A stretch of 64,000 nucleotides of DNA, from positions 310,001 through 374,000 of the forward strand of contig CAUYUJ010000248.1 in assembly GCA_963575745.1 (NCBI GenBank), written 5' to 3'. The stretch is from Prorocentrum cordatum. Its lineage: Eukaryota. Positions within the stretch are counted from its first letter, which is position 1. Every line of letters starts with the position of its first letter. The position numbers and the translations under genes are program-made. Below the pieces are notes generated by a model. It made no database searches. It was not told the DNA's origin and was given only the letters and a program-made list of their open reading frames with translations. Of the stretch, positions 193 to 24,997 are shown in pieces.

Positions 193-262
193 ATAGTAGG
201 AGTAGTGGTGCAGTAGTAGTAGTAGTAGTAGTAGTAGTAGTCGTAGTCGTAGTCGTAGTCGT

Positions 263-294
<32 letters not shown>

Positions 295-358
295 TAGTAG
301 TAGTAGTCGTAGTACTACTCGTAGTAGTCGCAGTAGTCGCAGTAGTAGTAGTAGCAGC

Positions 359-393
<35 letters not shown>

Positions 394-440
394 GACTGGT
401 GGTAGTAGTAGTGGTCGTAGCAATCGTAGTAATAGTAGTC

Positions 441-488
<48 letters not shown>

Positions 489-634
489 ATAGTAGTAGTA
501 GTAGTAGTAGTAGTAGTGTAGTAGTAGTAGTAGTAGTAGTAGTAGCAGTAGTAGTAGTAGTCGTAGTCGTAGTCGTAGTCGTAGTCGTAGTCGTAGTCGT
601 AGTCGTAGTCGTAGTCGTAGTCGTAGTCGTAGAT

Positions 635-673
<39 letters not shown>

Positions 674-887
674 CTAGTAGTAGTAGTAGTAGTAGTCGTA
701 GTAGTAGTAGTAGTCGTAGTAGTAGTAGTCGCAGTAGTAGTAGTCGTAGTAGTAGTAGTAGTAGTAGTCGTCGTCGTCGTCGTCGTAATAGTAATAGTGG
801 TAGTCGTGGAAGTAGTAGTGGTAGTAGTAGTGGTCGGTGTAGTAGTAGTAGTAGTCGTAGTAGTAGTAGTAGTAGTAGTAGTAGTAA

Positions 888-924
<37 letters not shown>

Positions 925-958
925 CGTAGTCGTAGTCGTAGTCGTAGTCGTAGTAGCA
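1..958. repeat. (TAG)n / (TAGTCG)n microsatellite
   Basis: Directly visible; explains the poly-V/S/L/Y ORFs. Confidence 0.97.
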
Positions 959-2377
959 ATCGTTGTAGTTAGTGCAAACGTGGAGGAGGATGAAGATCAT
1001 AGGCCCTGGGGGGGTCGCTGGGGGGGTGGGACCAAGCAACAAACAGCCGACGATTCTCATACGCGTGATGATAGAATGTAACTTGTCGAACACGGCCTGA
1101 AAAGGTCCACAGGCGGCCCATGAAGGCGGCATATCAGTCCAGTGGGACGCCTACTGAACCCAATGTTTTCCGAAACGGCCCAAGAAGTCCCGCGATGCCG
1201 CCGAACCCCGTTCAAAAACACGTGCACTTCAACTTGCGCGTTCGGACGGTTGTCAGTTTGAATATTTCGGGCGCCCACAGGGCCTGGGCACAGCCCGAAA
1301 CGGCTCATGGAAGCCCTGGGAGATCCAGGACAGCTTGAGATGGCTCAAGAGAGCCCGTATATGCCACCCGTGTGGGATCCCAAAGGCACCCGCGACAAGG
1401 CGGGGCGGTGGCGGTGACGGCGGGTGATGGCGAAGTCGCCATTGCCCAGAGTCTGGCCCCGACTGGACACCTGCCAGCGGGCGGACGCGTCGCTCTTGCA
1501 AGCGCTCGCAACTCCTGATTCCGATTGCAAAAGTCGGCGCGCGCCGACTGCCCCGCCGACTGCAGCCGCCGCCGAGTCGGACCCCCGCCAGCCGCCACAC
1601 CCGCGGACACCTCAGTCCCGATCAGCCGCCCTAGTGCCTCGACCTCTTCTTGGTGGAGAGATTGGACACTGGCCAGTTGTCCACGCCCGCGACCTTCGCG
1701 CGGGCCGCCCGCAGGATCTCCTGCGCCGCCGACGGCTCGCGGCGGCGTCTGCGCTCCAGTGGAGCGCCCGGCGCCTCGCCCGGCGGCGTCTGCGCTCCAG
1801 TGGAGCGCCCGGCGCTTCGCCCGAGGAAGTTGTCTGCTCCCGCGCGAGGTGCAGATTGCCGCGGCGCCTGGTCGAACACCGCGACGGCGGACGTCGCGCC
1901 TGCCTTGTATTCGCAGTGCCGAATTCGCCTGGCGGTGCGCGTGCCGAGAGCTCATACAAACGGCATCCGCTCATACGTCGCCCATAAGTTGAGCTTCGCC
2001 GCCAGCGTTCTCTTGTCCACGCGCACGACCTGCTGGTCGCTGCTGTTCATCACCGCGTGCACCTGCTCGTCCCGCGTGGCCCCCTCTCCATAGACCTGGC
2101 TCTGGGCCTCGGTGAGCCGGCTCCTGAAACGAACGTTGTTCATGAAGAAATCGGCTTTCTTTGGCTGGCACGCCGCCGCGGACGGCGGTCGCAGCGACCC
2201 TTTTTGTCGTCCTTCACGTCCATCCTCTTGGGGTACACGCGGGCGACTGCTGCAAGCAGCGTCGCCAATTCCTCCCGCGCGAAGCCCGAGGCCGCCCTTC
2301 CGAATGTGCTCGACTAACTTCTTCTCCCTGGCCGTGGCGGCCGCCGCCTGGCGGCCACGGAAGACAGGCTCGGCCGG

Positions 2378-3047
2378 GGAGGAGGATGGCAGGAGGAGGA
2401 GGAGGAGGATGGCAGGAGGAGGATGGCAGGAGGAGGATGGCAGGAGGAGGATAGCAGGAGGAGGAGGAGGAGGAGGAGGAGGAGGAGGAGGAGGAGGAGG
2501 GGCACGGCTGCATCGCGCCGCCTCAGCGCGGAGACTGCGCGGGCGCCGGCGTTGGCGGCTTCTGGGCGAGGAGCACCTCTCTTCGGCAGCCCTCGAGCCG
2601 CGGCGCTCCTCTGGCCGCGCCGGCGGCTGCCCCAGCCGCGGCCGCTGGCCTCCCGGTCAGGCCGCCTGCGGCCGCCCCCCGCCGCGGGCGCGCCCCGCGC
2701 GGCCGCCATCGGCGAGTCCTGCCTCGGAGAGCGAGGGGTCGTCGGACGCCCGGGGAGGGGGAGGCGCACGGGTGCTCCGCGCCATCTCGGCGCGGAGAGT
2801 CCGAGCGGGCGCGGGCGCTCAGCATATCGAAGCCCCCACGGCTGCCTCCGGGGGCCTCGGAAAAAGTGAGGGGTGTCGCTCGAGGTCGAGCGGCGCTTGC
2901 ACGGGGGCCGAGGGACCAGAGAAGGCCCGCGCCGTCAGGGCAGCAACGTGCCATAGAAGGAGGGGGCGGAGCGGGGGCAGAGGAGGAAGGGGCGCTGGCC
3001 TCGTCGTGCTCCTCCCTTTGCGCCTCCTCCTCATCCTCCTACTCCTG

Positions 3048-3094
<47 letters not shown>

Positions 3095-3689
3095 GTCATC
3101 ATCAGCAGCATCATCAGCAGCATCATCATCATTAGCATCATCACCACTTCTTCATCAGCATCATCATCATCATCATCATCATCATCAGCATCATCATCAT
3201 CATCATCATCATCATTATGTTTATCAACACCAGCAGCATCATCATAATCATAATTAGCATCGTCATCGCCATCATCATCATCATCAGCAGCAGCAGCAGC
3301 AGCATCAGCATCAGCATCAGCATCAGCATCATCAACCTCATCTGCATCATCATCATCATCATCATCATCATCAGCATCAGCATCAGCATCATCATCATCG
3401 TCATCATCATTGTCGTCGTCGTCATCATCATCATCGTCATCGTCATCGTCATCATTACATACACTTCCAGCTTGCCACGGCTACCCCAGCTAGATGTGCC
3501 TCTGTTCCTCTGGAGCCATAACACTGCTGGCAGGGAATAGGGAAACGGAAGTTGTTGCTAGGCCCAGGTTGCTAGCCCCAGGTTGCGGTGTGTACGGGCC
3601 CCCTGCCTGGCTTCTCGAACCAGAACGGCTTGAGCCAGAGTGGCTTGAGCCTGGAGGGGGGCGGTGTGTTTCCTCCTCATCATCCTTCC

Positions 3690-3764
<75 letters not shown>

Positions 3765-4410
3765 GCATCATCAGCATCATCATCATCCTCATCCTCATCC
3801 CTGTCCTCATCCTCATCTTCATCCTCATCCTCATCCTCATCCTCGTCCTCCTCCTCGTCCTCGTCCTCCTCTTCCTCCTCACCCTCCTCATACTCCTCAT
3901 CCCTCCCTCCCTCCCTCCCTCCCTCCCTCCCTCCCTCCCTCCCTGCCCGCCCCCACTCACTCCTCCCCGGCCGCCGCCCGCCCGCGCAGGCGCTGGGGGG
4001 GCCTTGCCGAAGCCGCGGAGCCGCGGCCAGGCGGCGTCCGCCCCCGTGGGCATGGCCAGGGCAGGCGGGCAGGCAAGGGAGGGAGGGGAAGGGAGGGAGG
4101 GGAAGGAAGGGAGGGGGGAGGGAGGAGGGAGGGTCGAGGAGCGGCCACGCGCGAGGAGGGAGGGTCGAGGAGGGAGGGAGGAAGGGGAAGAACAACGAGG
4201 AGGAGGGCAATCACGGAAGAATTAGGAAGAGGGGGGAAGGAGTTGAGAGGAGTGAGGAAGAGTGAGGAGGAGTGAGGAGGAATGATGGAGGAGTGAGGAG
4301 GAGGAGGAGGAGGAGGAGGAGGAGGAGGAGGAGGAGGAGGAGGAGTGAGGGGGGAGCGAGGACGAATGAGGAGGAGCGAGGCGGAGGAGTAAGGAGGAAT
4401 GAGGTAAGAG
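2378..4410. repeat. Low-complexity tract: (GGA)n, (CAT)n, (CCCT)n
   Basis: Directly visible triplet and tetramer runs interleaved with GC-rich sequence. Confidence 0.9.
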
Positions 4411-4413
4411 TGA

Positions 4414-4603
4414 GATATCGTGATATCGAGGTGCCGTGAGAGCGGGCTGCGAGCACACCTTGGACCCGTCTCACCCCAGAAAGCCTGGACAAAAATGGCG
4501 GCGAGGCGCGAGCACGGAGCAGCACAAGAGCAAGATGAAGAGGAGGATGTGAGGACTCTCAAGGGTGGGTCGGAAATGAGAGAAAGAGAGAGAGAGAGAG
4601 AGA
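4414..4603 (-). repeat. 3' terminal direct repeat (pseudo-LTR) of the Penelope-like element
   Basis: GATATCGTGATATCGAGGTGCCGTGAGAGCGGGC...GGGTCGGAAATGAGAGA; near-identical to 10287-10468. Confidence 0.92.
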
Positions 4604-5201
4604 TCCCAGAGTCTGGATCTCGACGCGCGGGCCAAAGGCCTGCTCGAAGTTGCAGCCATCGTGGATGATGTCGCTCAGCTGGCCACTCGGCCAGGGGGAA
4701 GAGGAGGAGAGGGTCCTGGTCACGTCTCGGCATCATCGTCAAAGTCAGGGGAAGGGGAGAGAGAGCGAGAAAGAGAGAGAGAGAGAGAGGTGCCCATCAC
4801 TTCCCGCGGTACCACGCGTGGTACTCGCACCCACGGATGGACAGGGACCTCGAGTCATTGGGCAGTGTCAAACCGATTGCAATCATAGAAATGGTGAAGG
4901 AAAGGTGCCACGGTGGGAGTAACAGGAAGGGCATGGGACGGTGGGAACGCACTGGTCAGCCATCCAGCGACAGCACAGGGCGAACACACAAGCCTGATCA
5001 ATCGGGCATCCTGGGGCAGAGGGGGCAGGGACGGAGCGGACGGTGCTGACAGCTGGGCGCATTCTGGACTCAGGCTGCATTGGGCTCCCAAGGCCTGTGA
5101 GGTCCCACAGGGTTGGGGGAGGGGAGGGATGAGTAGGATGCTAAAGAGGAAGGAGGGAGGTAGGGAGGAAATAATCACCTGGGAGGCCATACATATCAAC
5201 G

Positions 5202-5585
5202 CTAATCTACAAGTTGAGCCTCGTAGGCTGGCGAATCACGGATGGTCCTATTCATCTGTTTACGTCCTTGTGAGAAGTAGGTGAGGCAGGGGAGGCTAGG
5301 AGGACAACCTTGCAGGCACCCGACGACGAGCGGGATGGAGGCGCCCATCACGCCTGACACCATGTGCTGCACGGCAGCCTGCTCACGACTGTAGGCCAGG
5401 GTGAACGGGAGCTGAAACGAGTTGAGCAATTCCTGGACATAGGAAACCTCGCGGGTGTGGGTCCAGTTGAGAGTCACGTAGGTTTTCAACACTTGTGATA
5501 CCCGCCAGTCATCCACTGGGAACGTGATCCATAACATTACCGCGAGCATGAAGCCTGCGATGAACGAACCAAGGAATTGATGCAT
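5202..5585 (-). CDS. Element accessory ORF (~127 aa), putative small membrane or secreted protein
   Basis: MHQFLGSFIAGFMLAVMLWITF hydrophobic N-terminus, NWT sequon, second weaker hydrophobic segment MVSGVMGASIPLVVGCL; non-repetitive sequence. Confidence 0.4.
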   Translation of the reverse strand: MHQFLGSFIAGFMLAVMLWITFPVDDWRVSQVLKTYVTLNWTHTREVSYVQELLNSFQLPFTLAYSREQAAVQHMVSGVMGASIPLVVGCLQGCPPSLPCLTYFSQGRKQMNRTIRDSPAYEAQLVD

Positions 5586-5672
5586 AGGAAAGCCTCCATC
5601 GCACAACTCGTCATCGTGCGCGTCTAGCTGCAACCCAAATTTTGTGTCAGCATCTGTCGCATTCGAGTTGAT

Positions 5673-6497
5673 TCAGAGCGCTGGCCCATCTATGATGTGC
5701 AGCACCTGCGAGATGCGCTTCTCCTTGGAGCTTGGAACTGCTTTGCGAGGGAAGTGCGACTTGATGCACTTGTTGACCTGTCCGACCGACGCCTTATCAC
5801 GCATGGCCTCCTCAAGCCTTGACGCCGCCTGGGCCCACGTGAGCTTCGACGGGAGCGTCTTCTTCTTGCCGATGATCGACTGGAGCCAGACCACCTCCGC
5901 TCTGCTCATGACGTCCTGGGAGCCAGCAGGGCCCGCAACTGGAGTCGGCGAGCAGCCGCGGCCCGCCTCATCCGTCACCTTGGTCTCCTTCGTCTCCTTC
6001 TGGGCCTCAAGCTTGGAGAGGCGATCGCCGAAGGCCGACTTCATCGCTGCTGCCATGTACTCGCCCTGGCGCCTCAGCTGCATCCCCTCTGCCCTGTCCT
6101 TCTTGTCCTTGATGAACGCACAGTACTCTGGATCACGCTCAGCAAGGGCAGCACGCATCTTCTGGAGCTCCTTCTCCTGCGCCGACGGGGAGCGGGAGCG
6201 ACCGCCCCCACCAGCACGGCGGGCTCGGTCGCCATCACGATCGTCGCGCCCATCCCCACGGCGGTCGGGAGAACGGCGGCGGTCCCGATCACGGTCACGA
6301 TCTCTATCACGGTCGTAGTTATCACCGCGACGATCCCAATCGCGACGGTCATATCCATTACCTCGATCACCTTCACGACGTGGCCACTGGCCCCGCTCGG
6401 ACTGCCAGTCGACTCGACCACCGTCCCGACGGTCACGATCAGCATCGTAGCGTCGCCAATGTTGACGGCGCTCACCGCCACGGCCGTCACCACCCAT
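5673..6497 (-). CDS. Element accessory ORF (~274 aa): RD/RG/RS-rich N-terminus, predicted coiled coil, basic helical C-terminus
   Basis: Open from ATG 6497 (MGGDGRGG...DRDRDRDRRRSPDRR...RSRSPSAQEKELQKMRAALAERDPEY...); starts where the RT thumb-like region ends; same strand as RT. Confidence 0.6.
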   Translation of the reverse strand: MGGDGRGGERRQHWRRYDADRDRRDGGRVDWQSERGQWPRREGDRGNGYDRRDWDRRGDNYDRDRDRDRDRDRRRSPDRRGDGRDDRDGDRARRAGGGGRSRSPSAQEKELQKMRAALAERDPEYCAFIKDKKDRAEGMQLRRQGEYMAAAMKSAFGDRLSKLEAQKETKETKVTDEAGRGCSPTPVAGPAGSQDVMSRAEVVWLQSIIGKKKTLPSKLTWAQAASRLEEAMRDKASVGQVNKCIKSHFPRKAVPSSKEKRISQVLHIIDGPAL

Positions 6498-6499
6498 GC

Positions 6500-9400
6500 C
6501 TTGGAGAGGAAGTGGAGAGGAAGAAAGAACGTGTGCCACTGACGTGTTACTGCTCGAGCTTTCTGGGTAGCCATGGACCAGGGGCAACGATGTAGGGCTG
6601 TCTGGATGAGGCCCGCGGGGCACCCCAAGAAGATGAGCTCCAGGGTCAACTCCAAGATCCAGGCCAGCGTCACAGGGATGGTAAGGGACAAGTGTTGGGC
6701 ACGGGCCAGGCGTCCTGAGTACAGGGCAACAACCGTCCCAAAGCCCCTGGGTGTAGTGCCTGGCCAGGGAAGGATGCCAGGTTTTGGACGGGGTCCAGGA
6801 TCACGGGCAATGAGCCAGAGCTTGTTGTCGTTCTTGGGGGCGATCCAGCAGGAGCCTTGTTGAGGCCACAGTTCCAAGTCCAGCCATACGCAGGGGGCTT
6901 CGGGGTCCTCGAGCTGGAGACAGCTTCACCTTATACACCAACGTGAGATAGTCAAAAACACATGTTCTGCAATACGATCTGCTAACTCCTAGCATATCAT
7001 CCGCATAACGCCGTTGACGAACTTCGATAGAGGACGAAGAAGTCGATAAAGTAAAACCTGACTTCACAAACTGCTCAGGCCTGCGTTGGGCCCGCATCCC
7101 ATACCAAGCCAGAAGTATAGAGAGGGCTACACCAGAGAGAACACCACCTATCGGGAGACCTCGGAGTTCGTATACTATGCCACCAATCGTAACGAGCGAA
7201 AGCCAGCGGTAGGCGAGGAGGGTGCGACCAATGTCCGAGGTCGAGATCTTAAAATACGTGGGAGGCGTGCCCGAAGTGAACGTGCGTGTCTTCACCTCCT
7301 TGCCTCGTTTGACGAGAGCTGCATCGGTGCCAAGCTGATGGATCACTGCAGCTGAAACGTCCCGCCAGGCTTCAGCAATGAGGCCTGCTCCACACTGCTC
7401 ATACGCCTGATCAGCATCAGCGACGACGGTGGTCACGTTTTTGAGCACACAACCGCACCTGAGGCAGGCGTCGTTCGCTGGCGGCTCGAGTTCGGAAACT
7501 ATGGCACGCACCTCGCGAGCTGCGTGGTTCATATTGAACACCTCTGACGAAAGTCCACTTGCCTGCAGCAGGTGGCGTGAGGCACGTCCAATCTATCTGA
7601 AGCCTTCAGTCCCAGGAGCGTCAGCCGAATTTACAATTCTACGCATACAGCTATGCCCAGGTTTCGAGCAACCCCTAGTACCATCATCCAGGAAGCACTT
7701 ACTCTTTACCGTCGGGAAAACGTACGGGGGTGTCGTCGTCTGGGAGGGTCTAGGCATCAGATTTCCTTTACGTAGCCAAGTAGGTAAGCCTTGGTAAGCA
7801 CGAGTCCAAAGCCAAACAGCTGCATCATATCTAGATAGATCATATCTAACAGTCCAGTCATCATCTAGTTCAGCAGTTTGGTGGAGCCAGCGAACAACAT
7901 CAGGGCCGTCAGCCCTCCAGGCCTTATCACCTTGCTTGTCATCGGCAATGATAATCTTGCCGTCCGCTTGGGCCACCGAGGTCTGGAGGGTCGCCTCCAA
8001 GTCCTGCCAATTTGCCCGGTGGGGAGCCTCGTGGGTCCTGATGGGGGCCCGCCGTGGACGAGAACCTTTTTGTGATGTGGTCGAGGCCCTTGCGGATCTG
8101 ACGGGGGCCCAAGCGTGCAGCCTGTGTCCACTCAGGTAGAGCCGCCTCAGCAGCCCTCGCCGAGATTTTGGGAGCCTGCCAAACTGGCAGTCGCCAACGT
8201 CCTGGAAGAGCTCGAAGAGAGAGGGGACCTGAAACAGATTGGGAGTCGGAGATAGGGGCGGGGAGGCACTCTGGCTTGGACTCGGCACAGAACCTGCTAG
8301 CAGAAACCTGATCCTTCCAGATCCGTTGGCCCTTCAACGCGACACGAGCAGGTCTCTGATACCACAATCTGGCTGGGGCAGACTTCATGCTGTTGGTCAT
8401 GTGCCTGATGGCACCACGGGCAATGCACCGGTACTCACACATCTTGAACTCATGCGGAAGACGGAGCACATGGCATTTTGCAGCTGGGAGATTCAGCGTG
8501 CGTGAATGTCGATCGATGTGAAGCCGTGCCATGCGCTGTCTCGTAAATTCTTGAAGAAAGAGATGACGCAAACTCGCCGCTTTGAAATATATGGCACCTT
8601 GTTCTGCACGCGAGATATATCTACAGAAAGGGAGGGGCTTCCATTTTCCAGATAAGTAAGCTAAGAGCAGTCCCAGACGGGAGGGTTCGAGTAGCCAAAG
8701 CTGTTCCTCCTGTTGGGTAAGATGAAAGTGCTCACGGATCTGCAGAACATACAATTCGCCAAACGGCGCCGACTCCGATAACGCACCTGGGAAGTGAGCA
8801 AGAGGGCCCCGAACCTGAACCGCTAGTAGTTCTGATACTGCTGTGGTAGCTGATAACCAGGCGGGTGGGGGAACACGTCGGGGAGGGCGTCGTCTCCAGG
8901 ATGGTGGGCGTCTACGGGGCGTATTCTTCTTGGGGGCTGAGTAGAGGGTCCCGAGGCCACGTCTTTGGCTCATGAGTTCCGTTTCACGCTCGTCCGCTCG
9001 GTTGTTGTTCGGTCTAAAACGTCGTATCGCTAACGCCTCGAAGTGAAAGCTCGCTGCCTCCGTGGGGACCCAGAGGAACGGGATGAAGAACAAAGACCCC
9101 GGACTCCTCCGAAGTTCTCGATATCGAGGTCGATTACTTGGTCGAACTCGGGGGAACATCAGGCCCCTCATGTGCTCCTGGATGCGCCCCAAGACTCCCG
9201 AGAGAACGCCCGACCTCAGAATCGCCTTGCCTACGTAGACGGAGGAGTGCGAGCCTAAGATGTAGACGATGGCCTTGTGGGGGTCCGTCGAGAGGCCTAG
9301 CATGCTCTTGAAAGCGAGAACTACCACGGGCTCCGACCAATCTTGAACACCTCGAGGCCACTCGGGAGGGAGGAGACGGAGCACTCGTCGAGCCCACCTC

Positions 9401-10017
9401 GACGGGGACGCAGATCGGATCTCGAATTGCAGTCGCACCAGGCCTGACATCAGCAGCACCACGCCCACGGTGCTCCGGAACGCAGGGCCTCGAAAGGCCC
9501 TCGTGCTTGACGGTTGCGAGCTTATGAACTCGGTCAAGAGCGCGAAGACTGTTGAGAGATGTGCACGAAAGTGTCGGTGTGTACGGCGTGCCCAAAGCCA
9601 CGAACGAATCGCACCACCAACTTCACCTCGGGTAAGGCCTGAATTCCTGCGAAGAACATGCATAAGAAAGGCTCGTGCCTGTTCAAGGGCACGAGGCTGA
9701 TCACGTGGTAGAGGAATCAGGAGTCGATTGAGCTCCAGTTCCTCCTCCTCGGCACATACCATGGGCCCCACCTCGGGGTGTTGATCCAGCCAATGCTGTT
9801 GTAGCTGTCCACGCTGCTGCTGGTGTCGTCCTCTGATTCCGCCGAGCGTCCCGCTAGCATCCTGATGCTCGCGGCCGAGAGGAGCCATCTCTCCGTCTGC
9901 GCGTCCTGAGCTTCGATCTCCGCCTGGAACTTCCTCCAGGCCATCTCCATGTCCCAGAGCGGCGGTCCGAAGATTTGGTAGTAGGGCACCGATGTCTGTG
10001 TCACTGCCTGTAGCCAT
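6500..10017 (-). pseudogene. GIY-YIG endonuclease-reverse transcriptase polyprotein, disrupted (about 2 frameshifts and 1 stop)
   Basis: GIY-YIG: IVYILGSHSSVYVGK...GRIQEH...FEALAIRRFRPNNN (~9000-9275). RT: ADDKQ, PYVFPTVK...RRIVN, VADADQAYE (~7400), GLPIGGVLS (~7150), RRYADD (YADD 6996-7007), WLDLEL, and thumb-like LARA...ELIFLGCP. Frameshifts near 8045 and 6910; in-frame TAG at 7593-7595. Confidence 0.88.
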
Positions 10018-10097
10018 CGTTCTGGACGCTGGTTGAAGTTCTTCACGAGGGTGTAGATCTCGTATACACTAATCACTGTCAGGAACGTCGGAGGCAT
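9717..10097 (-). CDS. Possible 5' accessory ORF (~126 aa) of the Penelope-like element
   Basis: MPPTFLTVISVYEIYTLVKNFNQRPERWLQ...; protein-like composition; overlaps the start of the pol frame. Confidence 0.3.
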   Translation of the reverse strand: MPPTFLTVISVYEIYTLVKNFNQRPERWLQAVTQTSVPYYQIFGPPLWDMEMAWRKFQAEIEAQDAQTERWLLSAASIRMLAGRSAESEDDTSSSVDSYNSIGWINTPRWGPWYVPRRRNWSSIDS

Positions 10098-10286
10098 CTC
10101 GGAGAGGTAGTGGGGAGAGGAGTGCTGCTGCGTCTCGGGACGATACGAGCGCGATCCAGGAACTGGTGCGTGATCCTTGCGCCTCCGTTGCTCGGGAAGT
10201 CCAAGCCGGCTAGACACAAGATGTGAGAGAGTCCCGTTCTGCGAAACCCACCTTTCTTCCAACAGAGATATCGCTGGCGTCTGGTC

Positions 10287-10468
10287 GATATCGTGATATC
10301 GAGGTGCCGTGAGAGCGGGCTGTGAGCACACCTTGGGCCCGTCTCACCCCAGAAAGCCTGGACAAAAATGGCGGCGAGGCGCGAGCACGGAGCAGCACAA
10401 GAGCAAGACGAAGAGGAGGATGTGAGGACTCTCACGGGAGGGTCGGAAATGAGAGAGAGAGAGAGAGA
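10287..10468 (-). repeat. 5' terminal direct repeat (pseudo-LTR) of the Penelope-like element
   Basis: Matches 4414-4603 with only a few substitutions; ends in (GA)n next to a poly-A run. Confidence 0.92.
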
Positions 10469-13400
10469 AAAACAAAAAAAAAAAAAAAAAAAAATGAAGG
10501 GGAGGGTGAAGGGGAGGGAAGGGAAAGAGGAGGGGAGAAGGAAGTGGAAGAGGAAGGGGAAGAAGGAGGTGGAGGTGGAGCCGGAAGGATTGGGAGAGGA
10601 GGAGGAGGAGGAGGAGCAGGAGGAGGAGGAGAGGGAAGGGGTGGGAGGGGGAGGAAGGGGAGAACGACGACGACGTATTCTGGGTCATTTCCAGGGGTGC
10701 GAAGATAATCACGCTCCGCACATCGCGCTTTGGGTTGAAGAGCTGCCCCCATCCGGGGGGGGCAGCGCGAGGGCGTGGGGGCGCGAAGATCACCGCTCGT
10801 CGCGCGTCGCGAAGCGCGGTGCGCGAAGTTCGGCGACGTAGAACACGATAACCAGGTACTCGGAGGTCGTCGTTGATCCCAGACGCTTTGCGCTCACCGT
10901 CCGCCCATTCCAGTTCTCGCCCAGAGGCGGCGAAGGCGGCCCCACGACGGGGTGGAAAGAGATATTCGGAAAACGGGGAAGGCCCTCCCGCAGGTGTATA
11001 TCTTGTATTTCTCATGTAGTCCATTTCTTCTCCATCGCATCGCCAAGTGGGCTCAGTTATTCCGTGTGGCTGATCGATGCCCGTCACCATTACCAACGGG
11101 TAATTGCTGGCTCTCTGGACATTTGATGCTGATTATGGACGCTGGCTCTCTGGACATTTGCTCCTTATCCACAGCAGGAGCCCCGAATTAGCCATAACAC
11201 CGCACCACGACGGCCTGGAGACAGCCCAACACCCGCCTACAAGGGCCGAAAAGGGTTCGAAGAGGGGCCAAGATGGGCCCGAGGCGGCCCAGGCGGGCCG
11301 CTGGACTGCCCAAGCGCGAGGACCCCCGCGATGGCCCCGACCACGTCCGAACTTGCACTGAAGCTGCGCCAGGGTCTGGGTCTGTTTGGGTGTCGTTTGG
11401 GGATCCAGGTGTGTCCATAACATCCAACATGGATCCCAGATCACATTCAAAAATGGCGTCGAAATTTGCATGCTGAAAATATCCCAGACGACACCGAAAG
11501 TCAGCCACAAGTGGCGTCCAGGCGACCCCGGCGAAGTAACATCTTAAACAAAAAGCATATGGTTGTTGCTCTACGTTTGAAGTTTCCAGTTTGTGGGCGA
11601 GGTTGGGCCCAAGAGGCGTTCTTGATGAGCCTGGGAGTCGATTTGGGAGGTCACGACGAAGCCCCGAAAGGGGCAAACATAAAGCAAAACTGCGGTCTGA
11701 AAGGTTGGTAGAAACGGTCTGACATTCGAGCTCGTTTTGGACGGCGTCCGGAAGCCGTCTTGGGACTGGAAAAGGGTATGTTCCGCAGCCTGGTGGCGGA
11801 ATAGCGGGGGCCTCTGGGGGGGGGGGGAAGAGGGGGCTGCAGCTTTGCAAGGAGCTCTCGCACTTCAATCTCACACGCACCTCGGCTTGGCGGGCGGGCG
11901 GATTTCTCTGGCTTCGGGGGGTGCACGTCCGAAGCACATCAAGACTGGGCATTACACCTTAGGCGATGCTTAAGAAAACTTGCATTTTCGGCCAGAGTCT
12001 CGATTATTCTTAATGTTTCAATGTAAATCCTAATGTTTGAATGGAAATTTTGGGTTTTTATTCAAGTACTGAGACTATGAATTTCTTAACCCATGATTTC
12101 TTAAGCATTTCGCAGGGTGTAGGGTGGTCTGCCCTGCTCGCCTGGCGCTCTGGCCTGCTGCCTCGTCCTGCCCGCCCCGGGGCGCTGCCAGCGCCGCGGG
12201 GGGGGCGGACGCGCCGCCCCCTGTTCCCGCGCCAGGGGTCCTTTTGGAGCCCTCTTGGGGCGTCTCCGAAGCTTCTTGGGCCGTCTCGGAGCCATCTTGC
12301 CTGTTTTCGAAGATTCCCCGGCGCGTCTGGGCCCGGCTTCAGCCAGCTCAAATGGCACCTCGTGCATCTTGGAGGCCACGGAGTGCAGATTTGGAGGCTC
12401 CGGGGGCCCCGGGGCTGCGTCTACGAGGTCTGGCCTCCACCTGCCCCCGGGCCGCCCCCTCCAATGCGATTTCGTACCCCAGGCAGGGGAGTGGGACAGG
12501 GGGACGGGCAGCCAATCATCGCACACGCCTTTGCACCCCCGGCAAGCGGGGGTCGGCGGATTTGTGGACAATCTTCGGAAGTGTTCGGGAAGTTCTGGAT
12601 GGCTTCTGGGAGGGAGGGGAGGCGTTATGGCCATTGGCTGGCCAGGTGAGGAGCACATTATCCTCCTCCTCCTCCTCCTCTCTCTCCCCTCCTCCTTTCC
12701 TCCTCCTCCTCCTCCTCCTCCTCCTCCTCCTCCTCCTCCTCCTCCCTCCTCCTCCCTCCTCCTCCTCCTCCTCCTCCTCCTCCTGCTCCCCTCTTCCTCC
12801 TCCTCCTCCTCCTCCTCCTCCTCCTCCTCCTCCTCCTCCTCGGGACACCCGTTCCGCACACCATTCCGATCTCCCCTTCGCCCCAGTCCAGACGGATCGG
12901 TGCACGCGCCGATCTGCCCCATCGAGGGAGGCGGGCGGGTCGGAGGACCCACCGAGTCGTCTCGGGAGGCGAGGGGAGGAGGGCCAGGGTGGTGGTCGGA
13001 GCGGAGCCTCCCGCTCGTCTGTGCTTCTCTCTCCTCCCCGCTCGCTCCTGCCTCGCCCGCGCAGCCTCGCGGCCCTTGCACCGTCCTCGCCCTCGCCCTG
13101 CCCAGTCGGTCTCCCTCAGCATGCCAGGCGGGTGAGCCCGTGGCTCCTCCTCCTTCTCGTCCTCCGCCCCCCTTGTGCCTTTCGAGCTCCTCGTTGCCTT
13201 CCTCCTCGTCAACTCTGCGTCCCTCACGGTCCTCTACGTGCGCTGTCCAGCTAGCTCTCGTTGTACCCCTCCTGCTCCTCCTTCTCTGCCTCGTCGTGCT
13301 CCTTCTGGTCTCTCCTCGGCCTCCCCGCCGTCGCCCTCTCCTCATGCACCTCCTCCCAATCCGCTCTCATCCCTTCTCTGCTCTTTTCCGCATCCCTCCC

Positions 13401-13499
13401 TCCTCCTGGGAGACCCGACTGCCCGGCGGCGGCACCGCATGTGTCTCCACCGCGCTTGCAGCCCGCACGCGTGCACGCCTGCGGACGCTCCGCAAAGCT

Positions 13500-13682
13500 C
13501 GAAGAAGAAAAAACCACATAAGCATAAAATGTTCGCGCTCCGCGCGGATTTCTCAGATCCGCGCCTGGGCCCCCCTGGCGGCGCCTCTGGCGCCGCCCCT
13601 GGCGCGCAGGGGGTCTGGCGCGGATCCAGGAAATCCGCGCGAAGCGCCAAAAGTTTCTGTTTACGTGGTTGTTTTTCTTCTA
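13500..13682. mobile_element. Palindromic MITE-like element
   Basis: Left arm AACCACATAAGCATAAAATGTTCGCGCTCCGCGCGGATTTCTCAGATCCGCGCC pairs imperfectly with right arm GGCGCGGATCCAGGAAATCCGCGCGAAGCGCCAAAAGTTTCTGTTTACGTGGTT. Confidence 0.65.
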
Positions 13683-13871
13683 GACGCGCGCTCCCGCTCT
13701 CCTGGCAGGGCCGCCAACGATCCGATTCGATCCCTCTACAGGAGGAATATTCAGAAATAGTAAAGAAATAGTCAGGGGACGATTTTGCTTGTATTTTTGA
13801 CCATGTTTAAACATGTTTTGAGTATCGCCCAAAATCCGCCTGTGGGGGGACGTGCCCGACCTAATTCGAGG

Positions 13872-14060
13872 GAAGAGAAGCACGGGGACCATGACCAAGA
13901 TGCCGCGGGATCTTGTCCATGCCGATCTTGGTCATGGTCTGCGTCGGCCGTCGCCGAGTCGCGAGGATGCTCCGCGAGAAGGCGCTGACCAAGATCGACA
14001 GTGACCAACATCGACGACGTTTCCGCGTTCAGCCTTGGTCATGGTCCCCGTTTTCTTCCC
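13872..14060. mobile_element. MITE-like element with 18-bp perfect inverted repeats
   Basis: ACGGGGACCATGACCAAG (13882-13899) / CTTGGTCATGGTCCCCGT (14034-14051). Confidence 0.6.
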
Positions 14061-15134
14061 CTCCAGCCCCCTCCAGCCGTATCTCTGCTCCGCGGGTCCT
14101 GCATTGGGGTGCCAGGGGCCCTTCCCCCGCGGGGCCCGAGAGGCAAGAGACCGTGGAGCTCCCGAACCTGCAGGCGCACGCCAGCGGGTGAGGGAGGGAG
14201 GGAGGGAGGAAGGGAGGGAGGGAGGGATTGAAGGCGGGAGGGAGGGAGGGAGGGAGGGAGGGAGGAGGAGGAGGAGGAGGAGGAGGAGGACGAGGAGGAG
14301 GAGGACGACGACGACGACAACGAGGACGAGGATGAGGACGAGGAGAAGAAGGAGGAGGAGAAGCAGCAGCAGCAGCAGAAAGATGAGGAGGGAAAACGGG
14401 AGGGAGGGAGAGATAGAAAGGGATTGACCCAGGGAGGGAAGGAGAAGGAGGCGGAGAAGGAGAAGGATAATGAGAAGGAGGAGGAGGAGAAGGCTTGAAA
14501 TCGGATTGACCTGGTGGAGAAGGACGAGGGAGGAGGAGGAGGAGGAGGAGGAGGTGCCCTCAACCGTGCTACCACTCCTTCTCCTCCTCGTGTCTGTGGC
14601 GTATTGTATTGCCATTCCCGTAGGTCTTGTCTCCCTCCTTGCTGCCGCTGTTGCTTCCCCGTCCAGCTCAAAGGATGTTGAACTCCTCGCAGTTCATCTC
14701 TGCACGCCGCCAGGTCGGACACGGCCACTGTCGTTGTCGCCGTCACCTAGGCCGGTGGCCCTGACGACAGGGTAGCGGCAGCATTGGCATTGCCGAAACG
14801 CGCCAGGAATTCAGCAAGGCCTGAGGGTGCAACTACGACACCTTGCATGGCTGCTGCTTTTGGGGGGGGGGGCTGCGCTCAGGGGAGGCTGCAGCACCGC
14901 TCAGCGATGTGCTGTTATGGGCCCTTTCCCATTCTGTGCTCTTCAGCTTTGGCTTCGGCTTCAGCTGCGGGTGCGCTTCGAAGTGCCTTCGAGCCAGTTC
15001 ACCCGAGTCGGTTCTCGGCTCGCACGCGTGCCTCTCTCCAGACTTCCCTCACCCTCTCCCTTGTCGATGTTCCATCCCAGAGCCCCATCTCCCCACCCCC
15101 TTGTGCTCCTCTCCCCTGTTCTCCTCCTGCTTCC

Positions 15135-15483
15135 TCTTCCTCCTCCTCCTCCTCCTCCTCCTCCTCCCTCCTCCTCCTCCTCCTCCTCCTCCTCCTCCTC
15201 CTCCTCCTCCTCCTCCTCCTCCTCCTCCTCCTCTCGTCTCTCCTCCTCCTCTCTCTCATTTTCCTCCCCCTCATCCTCCTCCTGCTTCTCCTCCTCCTCC
15301 TCCCTCCTCCTCCCCCTTCTCCTCCTCCTCCCTCCTCCTCCTCCTCTCCCTCCTCTTCCTCCTCCTCCTCCTCCTCCTCCTCCTCCCCGCCTTCTCCTTC
15401 TCATCCATCTTCCTTCTTCTTCCTCTCCTCCTCTCCTCCCTCCCCCTTCCCCTCTCCCCTCCCCATCCCCACCACCACCATCA

Positions 15484-15542
<59 letters not shown>

Positions 15543-15543
15543 G

Positions 15544-15588
<45 letters not shown>

Positions 15589-15815
15589 CGTCATCATCAT
15601 CATCAGCATCATCAGCAGCATCATCAGCATCACCACCGCCATCATCAGCTTCATCATCAGCATCGTCATCATCAGCATCAGCATCATCGTCAGCATCATC
15701 ATCAGCATCGTCATCGTCACCATCAGCATCCGCATCATCATCAGCATCAGCAGCATAATCATCATCATCGACATTATCAGCATCATGCGGGCGATCGTTT
15801 TCATCATCGTAATCG

Positions 15816-15864
<49 letters not shown>

Positions 15865-15906
15865 TATCCTCATCATCATCATCATCATCAGCATCATCAT
15901 CATCGA

Positions 15907-15947
<41 letters not shown>

Positions 15948-16610
15948 GTATCATCATCATCATCATCATCATCATCAGCGTCATCATCGTTATCATCATC
16001 GTCAGCATCCTCGTCAACAGCATCATCAGCATCCCTCCTCCTCCTCCTCCTCCTCGAGGTCGTCGTTGTCGTCGTCGTCATCATCGTCATGTTCCTCATC
16101 CTCCTCATCATCCACATAACCATCACCATCATCATCACCAACAGCATCATCATCAGCATCATCATAATCAGCATCATGATCAGCATCACCACCAGTAGCA
16201 TCATACTCACCATCATCATCACCATCAGCAGCAGCATCCTCATCAGCATCATTATTATTACCATCATGACCTACACTACCATCATCAGTATCATTATCAC
16301 CATCACCATCCTCACCATGGACTACATCATCGTCGTCAGCATCATGATCAGACGCGTCATACTCATCATCAGCAGCAGCATCATCAGCATCATCCTCAGC
16401 ATCATCAGCATCAGCATAATCATCGTCACCATCATCCGCCTCACCATCGTCATCAGCATCATCAGCATCATCATCACCTTCATCGTCGTTGCCATCGTCA
16501 AGATCATCACCATCATCATCATCATCATCATCATCATCGGCATCGGCATCATCGGCATCAGCATCAGCATCATCAACATGATCAGCTTCGTCAGCCACAT
16601 CATCATCCTC
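15135..16610. repeat. (CCT)n followed by (CAT/CAG)n microsatellite
   Basis: Directly visible. Confidence 0.95.
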
Positions 16611-17185
16611 TCACCTGGCAAGGGCTTTACGAGAGGCCTCAGCGCTTCTGATGCTGCTCGGCTCCTAAAACGTGTCATCCCTGGCTTCGGCCATGGTCGC
16701 CCCGCCGAGTGGTCCGCCGATCTGCGTCGGCCTGACACGGCGTTCTGTGCCTGACCCGCTCGTGTCGCGCCTGACGGGGGGGGGGGGCTGCGCGCCAGCA
16801 TGCCAGCACGGGCTTGGTCTTCGGTCCCGTTTTGCCGACGGTCGGTCTTGTTCGGTCTCCTCGGGTCATCGGTTTGCAGTCTTCGTGGCCTTTCGGTCTT
16901 TGTGCCCCCCATGTGGCGCTTGACTGGCCGCTGCGTTAGGTACAGTACGTCGGTTGATGGTTTGTTGTTGTTGATTGGTTCTCGTTCGACGTGCCCGATC
17001 CAATCCACATACTGTTCCTCGGCCTCCTCTTCCTCGGCCTCATCCTCCTCATCAACAGCATCTTCATCTTATTACGATTCCTGTTCAGCATCATCATCAC
17101 CGTCATCGTCATCGCCAGCATCATCAACAGCAGCATCATCATCAGCATCATCATCATTGTCACAGCGATCATCGCCACCATCAGA

Positions 17186-18069
17186 AATTATCCCAGAGCG
17201 ACCCTACCTAGGAGTTGGAGCCCCTAGGAGAGCAATATTAGTAGTAACGGTAAACGCCGTCCTCCTCTTTCTCCTCATCGTCGCAGTTGTAGCAGTAGCG
17301 GTAGTAGTAGTGTTATGCTATGCTATGCTATCCTGCGCTATGCTATGCTATGCTATGCTGGGCTATGCTATGCTATGCTAGGCTATGGTATGACATTATG
17401 TGCTGCGCTATGCTATGACATGCTATGCTATGCTATACTATGCTATGTTGCGCTATGATATGATATGCTGTGATGTGCTGTGCTATGCAATGCTATGCTG
17501 CGCTGTGCTATGCTAAGCACTGCTATGTCATGCTATGCGATGCAATGCTATGATATGCTATGCGATGCTATGCAGAGCTATGCTGTGCTATGCTATGCTA
17601 TGCTATGCTTGGCGATGCTATGCTATGCTATGCTGCGCTCATGCTGCGCTGCGCTATGCTGCGCTGCGCTAAGCAAAGCTAAACTAAGCTAAGGTATGTT
17701 AAGCTAAGCTAAGCTACGCTAAGCTAGGCGAAGCTAAGCTAAACTAAACTAAGCTAAGCTAAGTCATGCTAAACTAAGCTAAGCCAAGCTAAGCTCAGCT
17801 AAGCTAAGCTAAGCTAAGATGAGCTAGGCTACGCTTAGCTAAGCTAGGCTAGGCAAAGCTAAGCTAAGCTAAGCTAAGATGAGATAAGCTAAGCTAAGCC
17901 AAGCTAAGCTTAGCTAAGCTAAGCTAAGCTAAGCTGGGTGAACCCAGGGGGCGGGGACTGGGGGAACCGCGGGGCGGGGACTGGGGGAACCGCCGGGGGC
18001 GCTTTCCACTGCCCGGCCCCTTTAAGCTAGAGAGTAAGAACCCTTCTAGGCAGAGCCTAGGTAGGGAAA
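17186..18069 (-). mobile_element. Non-autonomous Helentron/HINE-like element enclosing (ATGCT)n and (AAGCT)n pentamer arrays
   Basis: 11-bp inverted repeats CCCTACCTAGG (17202-17212) / CCTAGGTAGGG (18056-18066); hairpin CTAGGC-AGA-GCCTAG at the 18069 end; the other end reads ...GGATAATT on the minus strand. Confidence 0.6.
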
Positions 18070-18074
18070 AAAAT

Positions 18075-18453
18075 CATCATCACCATCAGCATCGTCAGCA
18101 TCATCAGCATCACCATCATCAGCATCACCACCATCATCATGATCAGCATGATCAGCATCGTTATCGTCATCGTCACCACCATCATCATTAGCATCATGTT
18201 CAGCATCATCGTCATTAACACCAGCATCACCATCATCATCAGCATCATCATCATCATTATCATCATCATCATCAGCATCATCATCATAATCTTCATCATC
18301 ATCCGATGCATCGTTCGAATCATCATCATCAGCAGCAGCAGTATCATCAGCACCACCACCATCATCATCATCACCACCAACATCTACAATCATCACCACC
18401 ATCAGCACCATCACCAAAGTCATCAACATCATCATCATCATCATCAGCATCGA

Positions 18454-18501
<48 letters not shown>

Positions 18502-18985: not shown

Positions 18986-19169
18986 CGGCCCTGCTCACTG
19001 CCGTTCCTCGCCCCTCTCTCCAGAGATGGAGGAGGAGGAGAAGGAGGAGGAGGAGGAGGAGGCAGCAGACTGAGCAGGAGTAGGGGGGAGGAGGGGTGAA
19101 AAGGAAGAAGGATGCGAGTTAGCAGGCGCGCCCTCCTCCCCCCCTCGCCCCTCTATTCTCATTTATTTT

Positions 19170-19860: not shown

Positions 19861-19891
<31 letters not shown>

Positions 19892-22503: not shown

Positions 22504-22535
<32 letters not shown>

Positions 22536-24965: not shown

Positions 24966-24997
<32 letters not shown>

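What the first reader, a model, noticed from the sequence alone, without database searches (positions are those of the whole stretch)
4414..10468. Multi-ORF Penelope-like retroelement: N-terminal GIY-YIG-RT plus RD/RS coiled-coil and membrane-protein cargo ORFs
Seen: ~190-bp direct repeats enclose, on one strand, ORF0 (126 aa), a GIY-YIG endonuclease upstream of an RT (YADD, GLPIGGVLS), a 274-aa RD/RS-rich coiled-coil ORF and a 127-aa hydrophobic ORF. Established: GIY-YIG plus RT with pseudo-LTRs defines Penelope-like elements, and endonuclease-first order typifies the Chlamys/Naiad group, which are usually single-ORF. Inference: this is an undescribed multi-gene PLE lineage whose accessory proteins could act as an RNA-binding/particle protein and a membrane factor. 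It is the best candidate for a novel system in this window.
Basis: partly seen in the sequence, partly recalled or inferred. Interest (0 to 1): 0.85.

Follow-up and report, generated by a model that had tools for sequence, protein, structure and literature searches.

The report
Broken dinoflagellate Penelope-like retroelement copy
This is a dead copy of a retrotransposon family from dinoflagellates that joins a GIY-YIG nuclease to a telomerase-like reverse transcriptase in one long protein, and of its apparent extra genes only a small membrane-protein gene is real.

Summary
The "multi-ORF" look is mostly decay. Intact relatives carry nuclease, reverse transcriptase (RT) and the RD-rich/helical "274-aa ORF" in one ORF (P0004/L001; P0005, P0006, P0007 and P0010, 1321-1447 aa). 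Against the 77%-identical contig L001, the window copy has three frameshifting indels and one nonsense codon.

Predicted folds support both enzyme assignments. The N-terminal domain's two best matches among 48,161 chains are GIY-YIG nucleases, though at middling Z (7.5, 7.0). The RT's nearest solved structures are telomerase RTs (Z up to 14.3; best other RT 11.8). Sequence profiles (Pfam, PDB) see neither.

The 127-aa hydrophobic ORF downstream is a conserved coding sequence: dN/dS 0.09 over 48 codons, and third-position variation among other copies. ORF0 is only weakly constrained.

All relatives that carry an organism name are dinoflagellates, apart from one 86-aa fragment. The architecture matches N-terminal-nuclease Penelope-like elements (Naiad/Chlamys type), but their diagnostic CxC motif is absent and no RT phylogeny could be run. 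I found no description of such elements in alveolates.

Verdict: a new variant of a known kind. The window copy is a pseudogene.

The parts
10287..10468 (-). Upstream terminal direct repeat (pseudo-LTR). It begins with a (CT)n run.
   Evidence: family D5, 97% to the 3' copy; sequence. L001 has a homologous stretch at its 5' end, also preceded by (CT)n.
9717..10097 (-). ORF0, 126 aa. It overlaps the start of the polyprotein frame. Possible upstream ORF, weakly constrained.
   Evidence: Open in L001 with the same start peptide and the same stop position. dN/dS 0.56 overall and 0.38 in the first 53 codons, against 1.06 and 1.21 in the other two frames.
8011..10017 (-). Polyprotein, piece 1: N-terminal helical region, GIY-YIG nuclease, KR-rich block and long helical linker. 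The likely true start is the ATG at 9762 (inference from P0002's N-terminus).
   Evidence: dN/dS 0.08-0.17 against L001.
8986..9306 (-). GIY-YIG nuclease domain (residues 238-344 of the 692-aa ORF).
   Evidence: In a search of 48,161 chains, rank 1 is the I-TevI catalytic domain (Z 7.5, rmsd 2.1, 85 aligned) and rank 2 is T4 EndoII (Z 7.0). Columns Y252, Y261, G263, R278, E281, H282, E327 and N339 are at least 90% conserved in 45 sequences.
6917..8010 (-). Polyprotein, piece 2 (shifted by a 1-nt indel near 8010): DDK motif, then RT fingers and palm with motifs A, B (GLPIGGVLS) and C (YADD). Interrupted by an in-frame TAG at 7593-7595.
   Evidence: L001 has TAT (Tyr) and P0002 has Ile where the window has TAG. 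dN/dS 0.06-0.13.
6503..6916 (-). Polyprotein, piece 3 (third frame, entered by an 8-nt deletion at about 6916 and left by a 2-nt insertion at about 6502): RT motifs D/E and thumb.
   Evidence: dN/dS 0.20 in L001's frame. The model aligns to telomerase RT through the thumb.
5673..6502 (-). Polyprotein, piece 4: RD-rich low-complexity stretch, a long helix and a small helical C-terminal domain, ending at TGA 5673-5675.
   Evidence: Continuous with the RT in P0004 and L001. Homologous to the C-termini of P0010 (E 2e-6), P0007 (E 3e-4) and P0006 (E 6e-4). dN/dS 0.16. Helices at residues 524-585 and 618-689 of the model.
5586..5672 (-). 29-codon spacer between the polyprotein stop and the 127-aa ORF. 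It is in frame and free of stops, but unconstrained.
   Evidence: dN/dS 0.95, 24% amino-acid identity and 51% nucleotide identity to L001.
5202..5585 (-). Conserved downstream ORF of 127 aa: N-terminal transmembrane segment (residues 4-22) and a second hydrophobic stretch (75-93).
   Evidence: dN/dS 0.094 over the 48 codons present in L001, against 2.3 and 4.2 in the control frames. Of the 10 listed differences in other copies, 8 are at third codon positions and 7 are synonymous. Hydropathy.
4596..5201 (-). 3' untranslated region, ending in a (CT)n run.
   Evidence: Sequence. Little or no cover by other copies in run X1 over 4468-4935.
4414..4595 (-). Downstream terminal direct repeat, the 3' end of the element unit.
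   Evidence: sequence.

Best explanation
Window 4414-10468 (minus strand) is one inactivated copy of a multicopy dinoflagellate retrotransposon family. The element unit is 5873 nt and is preceded by a 182-nt duplicate of its own 3' end.

Intact members encode a single polyprotein of roughly 1300-1450 aa. Its parts, in order, are:
- an N-terminal helical region;
- a GIY-YIG nuclease of the type without CCHH cysteines;
- a KR-rich block;
- a helical linker of about 300-400 aa;
- a DDK motif;
- an RT whose nearest solved structures are telomerase RTs;
- a thumb;
- a basic low-complexity stretch, a long helix and a small helical domain.

A separate, conserved 127-aa membrane-protein ORF follows 29 codons after the stop.

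Inferred mechanism, by analogy with Penelope-like elements: the nuclease nicks the target, the RT primes on the nick and copies the element RNA, and template switching creates the partial tandem seen as terminal repeats. The C-terminal module probably supplies nucleic-acid binding or oligomerisation in cis (inference only).

The window copy cannot make the polyprotein. It has indels of +1, -8 and +2 nt and a TAG nonsense codon. These breaks created the apparent separate ORFs.
For: One ORF in relatives:
- P0002 joins the nuclease and the RT.
- P0004 and L001 join the RT, the thumb, the RD-rich stretch and the C-terminus.
- P0005, P0006, P0007 and P0010 (1321-1447 aa) carry everything.
- The window's 274-aa ORF matches their C-termini.

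Breaks in the window copy.

Purifying selection along the whole polyprotein in L001's frames: dN/dS 0.06-0.20, against more than 1 in 18 of 19 control-frame estimates.

Folds:
- RT model, pLDDT 77: Foldseek ranks 1-16 are all telomerase RTs, E 2.4e-7 to 1e-4. By VIA-align, telomerase RTs score Z 11.8-14.3 and the best other RT scores 11.8.
- Nuclease model, pLDDT 78.6: ranks 1 and 2 of 48,161 chains are GIY-YIG nucleases.
- The conserved catalytic columns fit both assignments.

Multicopy family:
- 608 representative proteins at E<=1e-3.
- 179 contigs at 85-99% likeness in one DNA run.
- Named members come from Prorocentrum, Polarella and Polykrikos. The Polykrikos member comes from a transcriptome assembly.

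ORF127.

No hammerhead ribozyme, as reported for Naiad/Chlamys (PMC8557442: abstract and sections 6 and 9 read).
Against: - Sequence profiles do not recognise the domains. The window RT piece scores RVT_1 E 0.029, below the cut-off. None of 20 long members has a Pfam family at E<=0.01. PDB sequence and profile searches gave nothing.
- The GIY-YIG match has Z below 8, which the tool calls middling. Foldseek on the whole N-terminal model found nothing.
- The CxC motif diagnostic of Naiad/Chlamys is absent.
- No RT phylogeny with reference Penelope-like elements could be made.
- The terminal repeats of a single copy cannot show 5' truncation or variable pseudo-LTR length.
- ORF127 conservation rests on close relatives only (77-99% nucleotide identity) and on 48 codons plus 10 listed differences.
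- The mechanism is inferred, not shown.
Confidence: 0.75

Rival explanations
1. One reading: a multi-gene Penelope-like element in which the 274-aa RD-rich/coiled-coil protein and the 127-aa hydrophobic protein are both separate cargo genes.
For: In this copy each has its own ATG and stop. ORF127 is a constrained separate reading unit, with an unconstrained spacer in front of it.
Against: The 274-aa region is fused in frame to the RT in P0004 and L001 and in P0005, P0006, P0007 and P0010. In the window it is separated only by an 8-nt deletion and a 2-nt insertion.
Confidence: 0.03
2. A retroelement class of its own that joined a GIY-YIG nuclease to a telomerase-like RT independently of Penelope-like elements. 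It works like one (target-primed reverse transcription) but is not a member of the clade.
For: - The CxC motif is absent.
- Sequence similarity to any curated RT or GIY-YIG profile is negligible.
- Family-specific conserved Cys/His clusters lie inside the RT.
- There is a long linker and a C-terminal module.
- PMC12477816 (passages read) states that Penelope-like elements had not been reported in stramenopiles, alveolates and rhizaria before its own Ectocarpus Chlamys families.
Against: The same domain order, KR-rich block, DK-type motif, CCHH-less nuclease with R/H/E/N, terminal direct repeats and lack of hammerhead are all listed for Chlamys in PMC8557442. The nearest solved RT fold is telomerase RT, the known sister of Penelope-like RTs. 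Physarum_Pp1, which that paper counts among Chlamys, also lacks CxC.
Confidence: 0.2
3. ORF127 is not a separate protein. It is a C-terminal extension of the polyprotein made by read-through of the TGA at 5673-5675.
For: In both the window and L001 it lies in the polyprotein's frame, exactly 29 stop-free codons after a TGA.
Against: The spacer evolves neutrally (dN/dS 0.95, 24% amino-acid identity). A shared frame and a stop-free run of 29 codons are both likely by chance in GC-rich homologous DNA. ORF127 starts with a conserved ATG.
Confidence: 0.12
4. ORF127 and ORF0 are chance open frames in untranslated regions, conserved only because the copies are young.
For: Only close relatives could be compared. 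ORF0's dN/dS is 0.56, with large sampling error. No homologue was found in any library.
Against: For ORF127, pN is 0.126 against pS 0.643, while the adjoining spacer has pN 0.49. Of the 10 listed differences among other copies, 8 are at third positions, which a binomial of my own reckoning puts near 0.003.
Confidence: 0.1

Closest known systems
Chlamys group of N-terminal-nuclease Penelope-like elements (Craig et al. 2021, PMC8557442; Ectocarpus Chlamys families, PMC12477816)
   Same: - A GIY-YIG nuclease lies N-terminal to the RT in one ORF.
- The nuclease lacks CCHH cysteines but keeps R, H, E and N.
- A KR-rich block follows the nuclease.
- A DK-type motif lies before the RT.
- The A-to-B spacing in the RT is long, where the insertion-in-fingers domain sits.
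- Terminal direct repeats are present.
- There is no canonical hammerhead ribozyme.
- The length falls within 3.3-8.2 kb, and some Chlamys carry extra C-terminal domains or an extra ORF.
- The neighbourhood is microsatellite-rich.
   Different: - No CxC motif.
- A linker of about 300-400 aa.
- Conserved C..C..H.C and two CxxC pairs inside the RT.
- An RD/RS/K-rich stretch plus a helical C-terminal module.
- A conserved downstream ORF for a small membrane protein.
- The host is a dinoflagellate.
- Clade membership was not tested by phylogeny.
Telomerase reverse transcriptase (TERT)
   Same: It is the nearest solved fold over fingers, palm and thumb: Z 11.8-14.3 with 239-357 residues aligned, and Foldseek ranks 1-16.
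   Different: Sequence identity is only 9-16%. There is no TEN or RNA-binding domain match and no telomerase context. The protein is fused to a nuclease and sits in a multicopy mobile element.
Canonical Penelope/Poseidon, Neptune and Nematis elements
   Same: An RT plus a GIY-YIG nuclease, and pseudo-LTR-like direct repeats.
   Different: The domain order is reversed. There is no CCHH motif. No hammerhead ribozyme was detected.

Membership tests
Penelope-like elements (broad) | The RT groups with Penelope-like RTs, sister to telomerase RTs, in a phylogeny | not testable with these tools
   No reference Penelope-like sequences could be obtained. The homology searches returned only the dinoflagellate family.
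Penelope-like elements (broad) | RT fold closest to telomerase RT among solved RTs | tested here: met
   Foldseek ranks 1-16 are telomerase RTs. VIA-align gives telomerase RTs Z 11.8-14.3 and the best other RT 11.8.
Penelope-like elements (broad) | GIY-YIG endonuclease domain | tested here: met
   Ranks 1 and 2 of 48,161 chains are I-TevI and T4 EndoII (Z 7.5 and 7.0). The Y, Y-G, R, H, E and N columns are conserved. Pfam and Foldseek did not see the domain.
Penelope-like elements (broad) | Pseudo-LTRs arising from partial tandem copies | tested here: inconclusive
   The upstream repeat equals the unit's 3' end: 182 nt, 97% identical. One copy cannot show variable repeat length or 5' truncation.
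Penelope-like elements (canonical C-terminal-nuclease clades) | Hammerhead ribozyme in the pseudo-LTR | tested here: not met
   Rfam scan of 4000-11000 on both strands at E<=10 found no hammerhead. PMC8557442 reports that Naiad and most Chlamys also lack it.
Naiad/Chlamys clade | Nuclease N-terminal to the RT in one ORF | tested here: met
   P0002 and P0005-P0010 cover nuclease and RT colinearly.
Naiad/Chlamys clade | CxC (zf-CDGSH-like) motif between the nuclease and the RT | tested here: not met
   No conserved Cys column lies between the nuclease and the RT in A4 or A3. All 7 long members in which both landmarks were found have 0 CxC in the linker; 6 others could not be evaluated.
Naiad/Chlamys clade | DKG-derived motif (DK in Chlamys) upstream of RT motif 1 | tested here: inconclusive
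   A conserved DDK....W lies upstream of the RT (consensus; window and P0002). Positional homology to DKG was not verified.
Naiad/Chlamys clade | Insertion-in-fingers domain between RT motifs A and B | tested here: inconclusive
   86 residues separate D111 and G197, with two helices and strands between them in the model. Homology to the insertion-in-fingers domain was not tested residue by residue.
Chlamys | Nuclease without CCHH and CX2-5CxxC but with R, H, E and N | tested here: met
   No Cys in the window's nuclease segment. R278, H282, E327 and N339 are at least 90% conserved.
Naiad/Chlamys clade | Insertion bias for microsatellites | tested here: inconclusive
   The copy lies in a polypyrimidine tract, and (CT)n precedes the repeat in the window and in L001. 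This is a single insertion, and the window is rich in simple repeats throughout.
LTR retrotransposons / DIRS | Integrase or tyrosine recombinase, RNase H, protease | tested here: not met
   No such Pfam family in the window ORFs or in 20 long members. The models show only nuclease, helical regions and RT.

The most novel reading that the evidence does not exclude
The window samples a large, deep, dinoflagellate-specific superfamily of nuclease-first, telomerase-like retroelements. It is distinct from Naiad/Chlamys and carries its own membrane protein. As an abundant, transcribed element that works by target-primed reverse transcription, it could be the so-far unidentified engine of the massive retroposition of spliced-leader-bearing mRNAs in dinoflagellate genomes.
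Probability: 0.1. Interest if true: 0.85.

Novelty: new variant of a known kind. Interest (0 to 1): 0.5.

Why it matters
Penelope-like elements are the closest mobile relatives of telomerase, and their range outside animals and the green lineage is poorly known. A 2025 paper (PMC12477816, passages read) says they had not been reported in stramenopiles, alveolates and rhizaria before Ectocarpus. My four literature searches found no description in dinoflagellates.

A large dinoflagellate family whose RT standard profiles miss would therefore matter in three ways:
- It would extend the host range of the group.
- It would explain part of the unannotated repeat and "uncharacterised protein" load of dinoflagellate genomes.
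- It would offer a candidate reverse transcriptase for dinoflagellate retrogene formation. A review (PMC6050394, passages read) says the responsible element type is unknown.

The conserved small membrane-protein ORF has no counterpart among the Penelope-like elements described in the parts of PMC8557442 that I read.

Tried and rejected
- **Own genome:** not held, so no copy census.
- **Hammerhead ribozyme:** none in the Rfam scan. Only two weak snoRNA-like chance hits.
- **Spliced-leader relic in the repeat:** the repeat looked a little like the dinoflagellate spliced leader (sequence taken from PMC6050394). Neither a 21-nt nor a 16-nt pattern matches inside the element at up to 3 mismatches. 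The single window match (3629-3644) is at chance level, reached in 31 of 100 shuffles. Idea dropped.
- **Sequence searches against the PDB:** neither P0002 alone nor the profile A3 gave an RT or nuclease hit.
- **Search with the 274-aa ORF alone:** no hit, probably because low-complexity words filled the candidate list.
- **Protein Atlas:** no usable hit for ORF127. The service was closed for two later queries.
- **Earlier findings of this scan:** nothing.
- **Viral and prokaryotic contig collections:** no relatives.
- **Sequencing runs:** no RNA holder listed, so expression of this copy was not assessed.
- **Foldseek on the whole N-terminal model:** nothing at E<=0.001.
- **Complex prediction:** not used.
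Full report
**Observation.**
- Two direct repeats of 182 nt (4414-4595 and 10287-10468) are 97% identical and 5873 nt apart. Nothing else in the window resembles the element.
- The ORFs of 126, 692, 243, 274 and 127 aa are present. YADD and GLPIGGVLS are in the 243-aa piece.
A third frame, 6074-6925, also reads like the rest of an RT.

**Relatives show one gene, not several.**
- A search with the 692-aa ORF returned 2 proteins among 8000 scored candidates. P0002 (1033 aa, 43% identity) runs from the nuclease into the RT without interruption. P0003 is a chimeric Prorocentrum cordatum gene model that contains pieces of the nuclease and of the 274-aa ORF.
- A search with the region downstream of the RT, read through with X, returned 2 proteins among 3362 candidates. 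One is P0004, a 621-aa uninterrupted ORF that runs from RT motif A through YVDD, the thumb, an RD-rich stretch and the helical C-terminus to the same end as the window's 274-aa ORF.
- Its contig, L001 (5103 nt), is 77% identical to window 10114-5441.
- The exhaustive profile-free search with P0002 found 608 representative proteins at E<=1e-3, 283 at E<=1e-10 and 46 at E<=1e-30. The longest hits (P0005, P0006, P0007 and P0010, 1321-1447 aa) contain nuclease, linker, RT, thumb, a basic/Ser-rich stretch and a helical C-terminus in one chain.
- The window's 274-aa ORF aligns to those C-termini: P0010 E 2e-6, P0007 E 3e-4, P0006 E 6e-4.

**How this copy is broken.** A global alignment with L001 (details) shows the following in the window:
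- one extra base near 8010;
- an 8-nt deletion near 6916;
- a 2-nt insertion near 6502;
- TAG where L001 has TAT and P0002 has Ile.

All other indels are multiples of three. L001 has a 1-nt deletion of its own near the position matching window 7731. A short contig of DNA run X1 that covers 7916-8160 also lacks one base at 8016. The apparent ORFs are therefore fragments made by these lesions.

**Selection.** Nei-Gojobori estimates between the window and L001, in L001's frames:

| Region | dN/dS |
|---|---|
| N-terminal region | 0.17 |
| Nuclease | 0.10 |
| Linker | 0.08 |
| DDK region | 0.06 |
| RT fingers and palm | 0.13 |
| Motifs D/E and thumb | 0.20 |
| C-terminal helical part | 0.16 |

- The control frames give values above 1, with one exception (0.081). 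That value belongs to the linker's true frame, because my start coordinate for the linker was one base off.
- The RD-rich stretch has pN 0.23 and a saturated pS of 0.81.
- The 29-codon spacer after the stop is neutral (0.95; 24% amino-acid identity).
- The first 48 codons of the 127-aa ORF, all that L001 holds, give 0.094, against 2.3 and 4.2 in the control frames.
- ORF0 gives 0.56. Its first 53 codons give 0.38, against 1.06 and 1.21 in the other frames. This is weak and imprecise.

**Other copies.** One DNA run held a fifth of the sampled words.
- Laying its contigs gave 179 pieces: 18 at 99% or more, 22 at 95-99%, 45 at 90-95% and 94 below 90%. This fits a multicopy family.
- The tool listed 40 best-supported differences and left 393 unlisted. 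I checked the 35 that lie in the coding frames.
- Ten fall in ORF127. Of those, 8 are at third codon positions and 7 are synonymous.
- The polyprotein shows a similar pattern: 2 of 2 synonymous in the C-terminus, 6 of 10 in the RT and 9 of 13 in the 692-aa ORF.
- No RNA run was listed, so expression of this element was not tested.

**What the domains are.** Sequence libraries fail on this family.
- Of the 5 window ORFs, only the RT piece touches RVT_1 (E 0.029, below the cut-off).
- P0002, P0003 and the read-through RT give nothing better.
- None of 20 long family members has a Pfam family at E<=0.01.
- PDB sequence and profile searches give no RT or nuclease.

The folds are clearer.
- An AlphaFold2 model of L001's RT-to-C-terminus ORF was built with 52 aligned sequences (pLDDT 77, above 90 over most of residues 50-410). 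Foldseek ranks 1-16 are all telomerase RTs (E 2.4e-7 to 1e-4), followed by group II intron, R2, retron and viral polymerases. There are 29 matches at E<=0.001.
- VIA-align puts 13 telomerase entries at Z 11.8-14.3 (239-357 residues aligned, model 1-421). The best non-telomerase RT is at 11.8, with 182 aligned.
- A model of the window's 692-aa ORF was built with 45 sequences (pLDDT 78.6). It gave nothing with Foldseek. The Foldseek-independent search of 48,161 chains ranks the I-TevI catalytic domain first (Z 7.5, rmsd 2.1, 85 of 92 residues, model 238-344) and T4 EndoII second (Z 7.0). UvrC's GIY-YIG domain is at rank 28. These Z values are middling by the tool's own caution. They cover a whole small domain, though, and coincide with the conserved Y252, Y261, G263, R278, E281, H282, E327 and N339.
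- RT columns conserved in 52 sequences include motif A (D111, Q114, E117), motif B (G197, I200, G201, G202, S205) and motif C (R247, D250, D251). They also include family-specific C18, C27, H32, C34, C95, C98, C260 and C263.

**Host.**
- Of the 20 clusters looked up, 3 carry organism names: Polykrikos kofoidii (a transcriptome assembly) and Prorocentrum cordatum/Polarella glacialis (two clusters). P0003 is also from P. cordatum.
- One 86-aa member is labelled as coming from a Pyramimonas transcriptome.
- No relative was found in the viral or prokaryotic contig collections.

**Comparison with the known.** I read the abstract, sections 6 and 9 and several passages of Craig et al. 2021 (PMC8557442). 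N-terminal-nuclease Penelope-like elements (Naiad, Chlamys) are defined there by these features:
- a nuclease-first order;
- a KR-rich block;
- a CxC motif;
- a DKG-derived motif;
- an insertion-in-fingers domain;
- pseudo-LTRs;
- microsatellite targets;
- no canonical hammerhead ribozyme.

Chlamys in addition lacks the CCHH cysteines but keeps R, H, E and N. It is 3.3-8.2 kb long and sometimes has extra domains or an upstream ORF.

The element here shares the following:
- the domain order;
- the KR-rich block;
- the CCHH-less nuclease;
- a DDK motif;
- an 86-residue A-to-B spacing;
- terminal repeats;
- the absence of a hammerhead;
- a polypyrimidine/(CT)n setting.

It lacks the CxC motif. 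No conserved Cys lies between the nuclease and the RT, and there is no CxC in the linker of any of the 7 long members that could be evaluated. That paper does not mention dinoflagellates (0 occurrences). PMC12477816 (passages) states that Penelope-like elements had not been reported in stramenopiles, alveolates and rhizaria before its Ectocarpus Chlamys families. Searches for Penelope-like or GIY-YIG elements in dinoflagellates or Symbiodinium listed no paper whose title or abstract describes such an element (listings only). A broader search added only the Ectocarpus passage.

**Mechanism.**
- Shown: the domain content, the single-ORF organisation, purifying selection, the multicopy state and the inactivation of this copy.
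- Inferred from what is established for Penelope-like elements: nicking by the GIY-YIG nuclease, target-primed reverse transcription, and formation of the upstream partial copy by template switching.
- Inferred only from composition and predicted helices: a nucleic-acid-binding or oligomerising role for the C-terminal module.
- Unknown: the function and mode of expression of the 127-aa membrane protein. It has a transmembrane segment at residues 4-22 and a second hydrophobic stretch at 75-93. A trans-spliced subgenomic mRNA, read-through and re-initiation are all possible.

**Verdict.** I file the element as working like, and probably related to, N-terminal-nuclease Penelope-like elements. I do not file it as a Chlamys member, because one diagnostic motif is absent and the phylogeny is untested.

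Noticed in passing
window 59835-61439 (+) and 60929-62248 (+): Two long open frames with Pfam domains above the cut-off: SET (E 1.4e-6) and 2OG-Fe(II) oxygenase (E 1.3e-12). They are probably exons of host genes, and they are the only clearly cellular coding sequence I saw in the window.
   Followed up: partly
window 37921-39810 (+), with 40280-41747 (+) downstream: A 629-aa open frame that looks RT-like by eye, followed by further long frames. No Pfam family at E<=0.01. It may be another divergent retroelement.
   Followed up: partly
window 200-4400, 12100-16800, 18000-27300, 42000-56400: Very long low-complexity tracts (trinucleotide and homopolymer-codon runs, polypurine/polypyrimidine) fill much of the window and give many spurious long ORFs on both strands.
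   Followed up: no
RT alignment A3 (L001 residues 18, 27, 32, 34; 95, 98; 260, 263): The family's RT has Cys/His clusters that are invariant or nearly so: C-x8-C-x4-H-x-C between motifs 1 and 2, a CxxC before motif A and a CxxC after motif C. They may be metal sites. I do not recall such clusters in other RTs, and I did not check.
   Followed up: partly
window 3629-3644 (-): A 16-nt match, with 2 mismatches, to the core of the dinoflagellate spliced leader, about 770 nt beyond the element. It is at chance level: 31 of 100 shuffles give at least one match.
   Followed up: yes
L001 about 2800 (matching window 7731): The metagenome relative has its own 1-nt deletion in a C run just before RT motif 1, so it too is not an intact copy, or it carries an assembly error.
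   Followed up: yes
window 9717-9762: ORF0 ends where the conserved polyprotein begins (the PLP motif). An ATG at 9762 gives an N-terminus resembling P0002's. ORF0 and the polyprotein therefore overlap by about 45 nt, as in bicistronic retroelements.
   Followed up: partly
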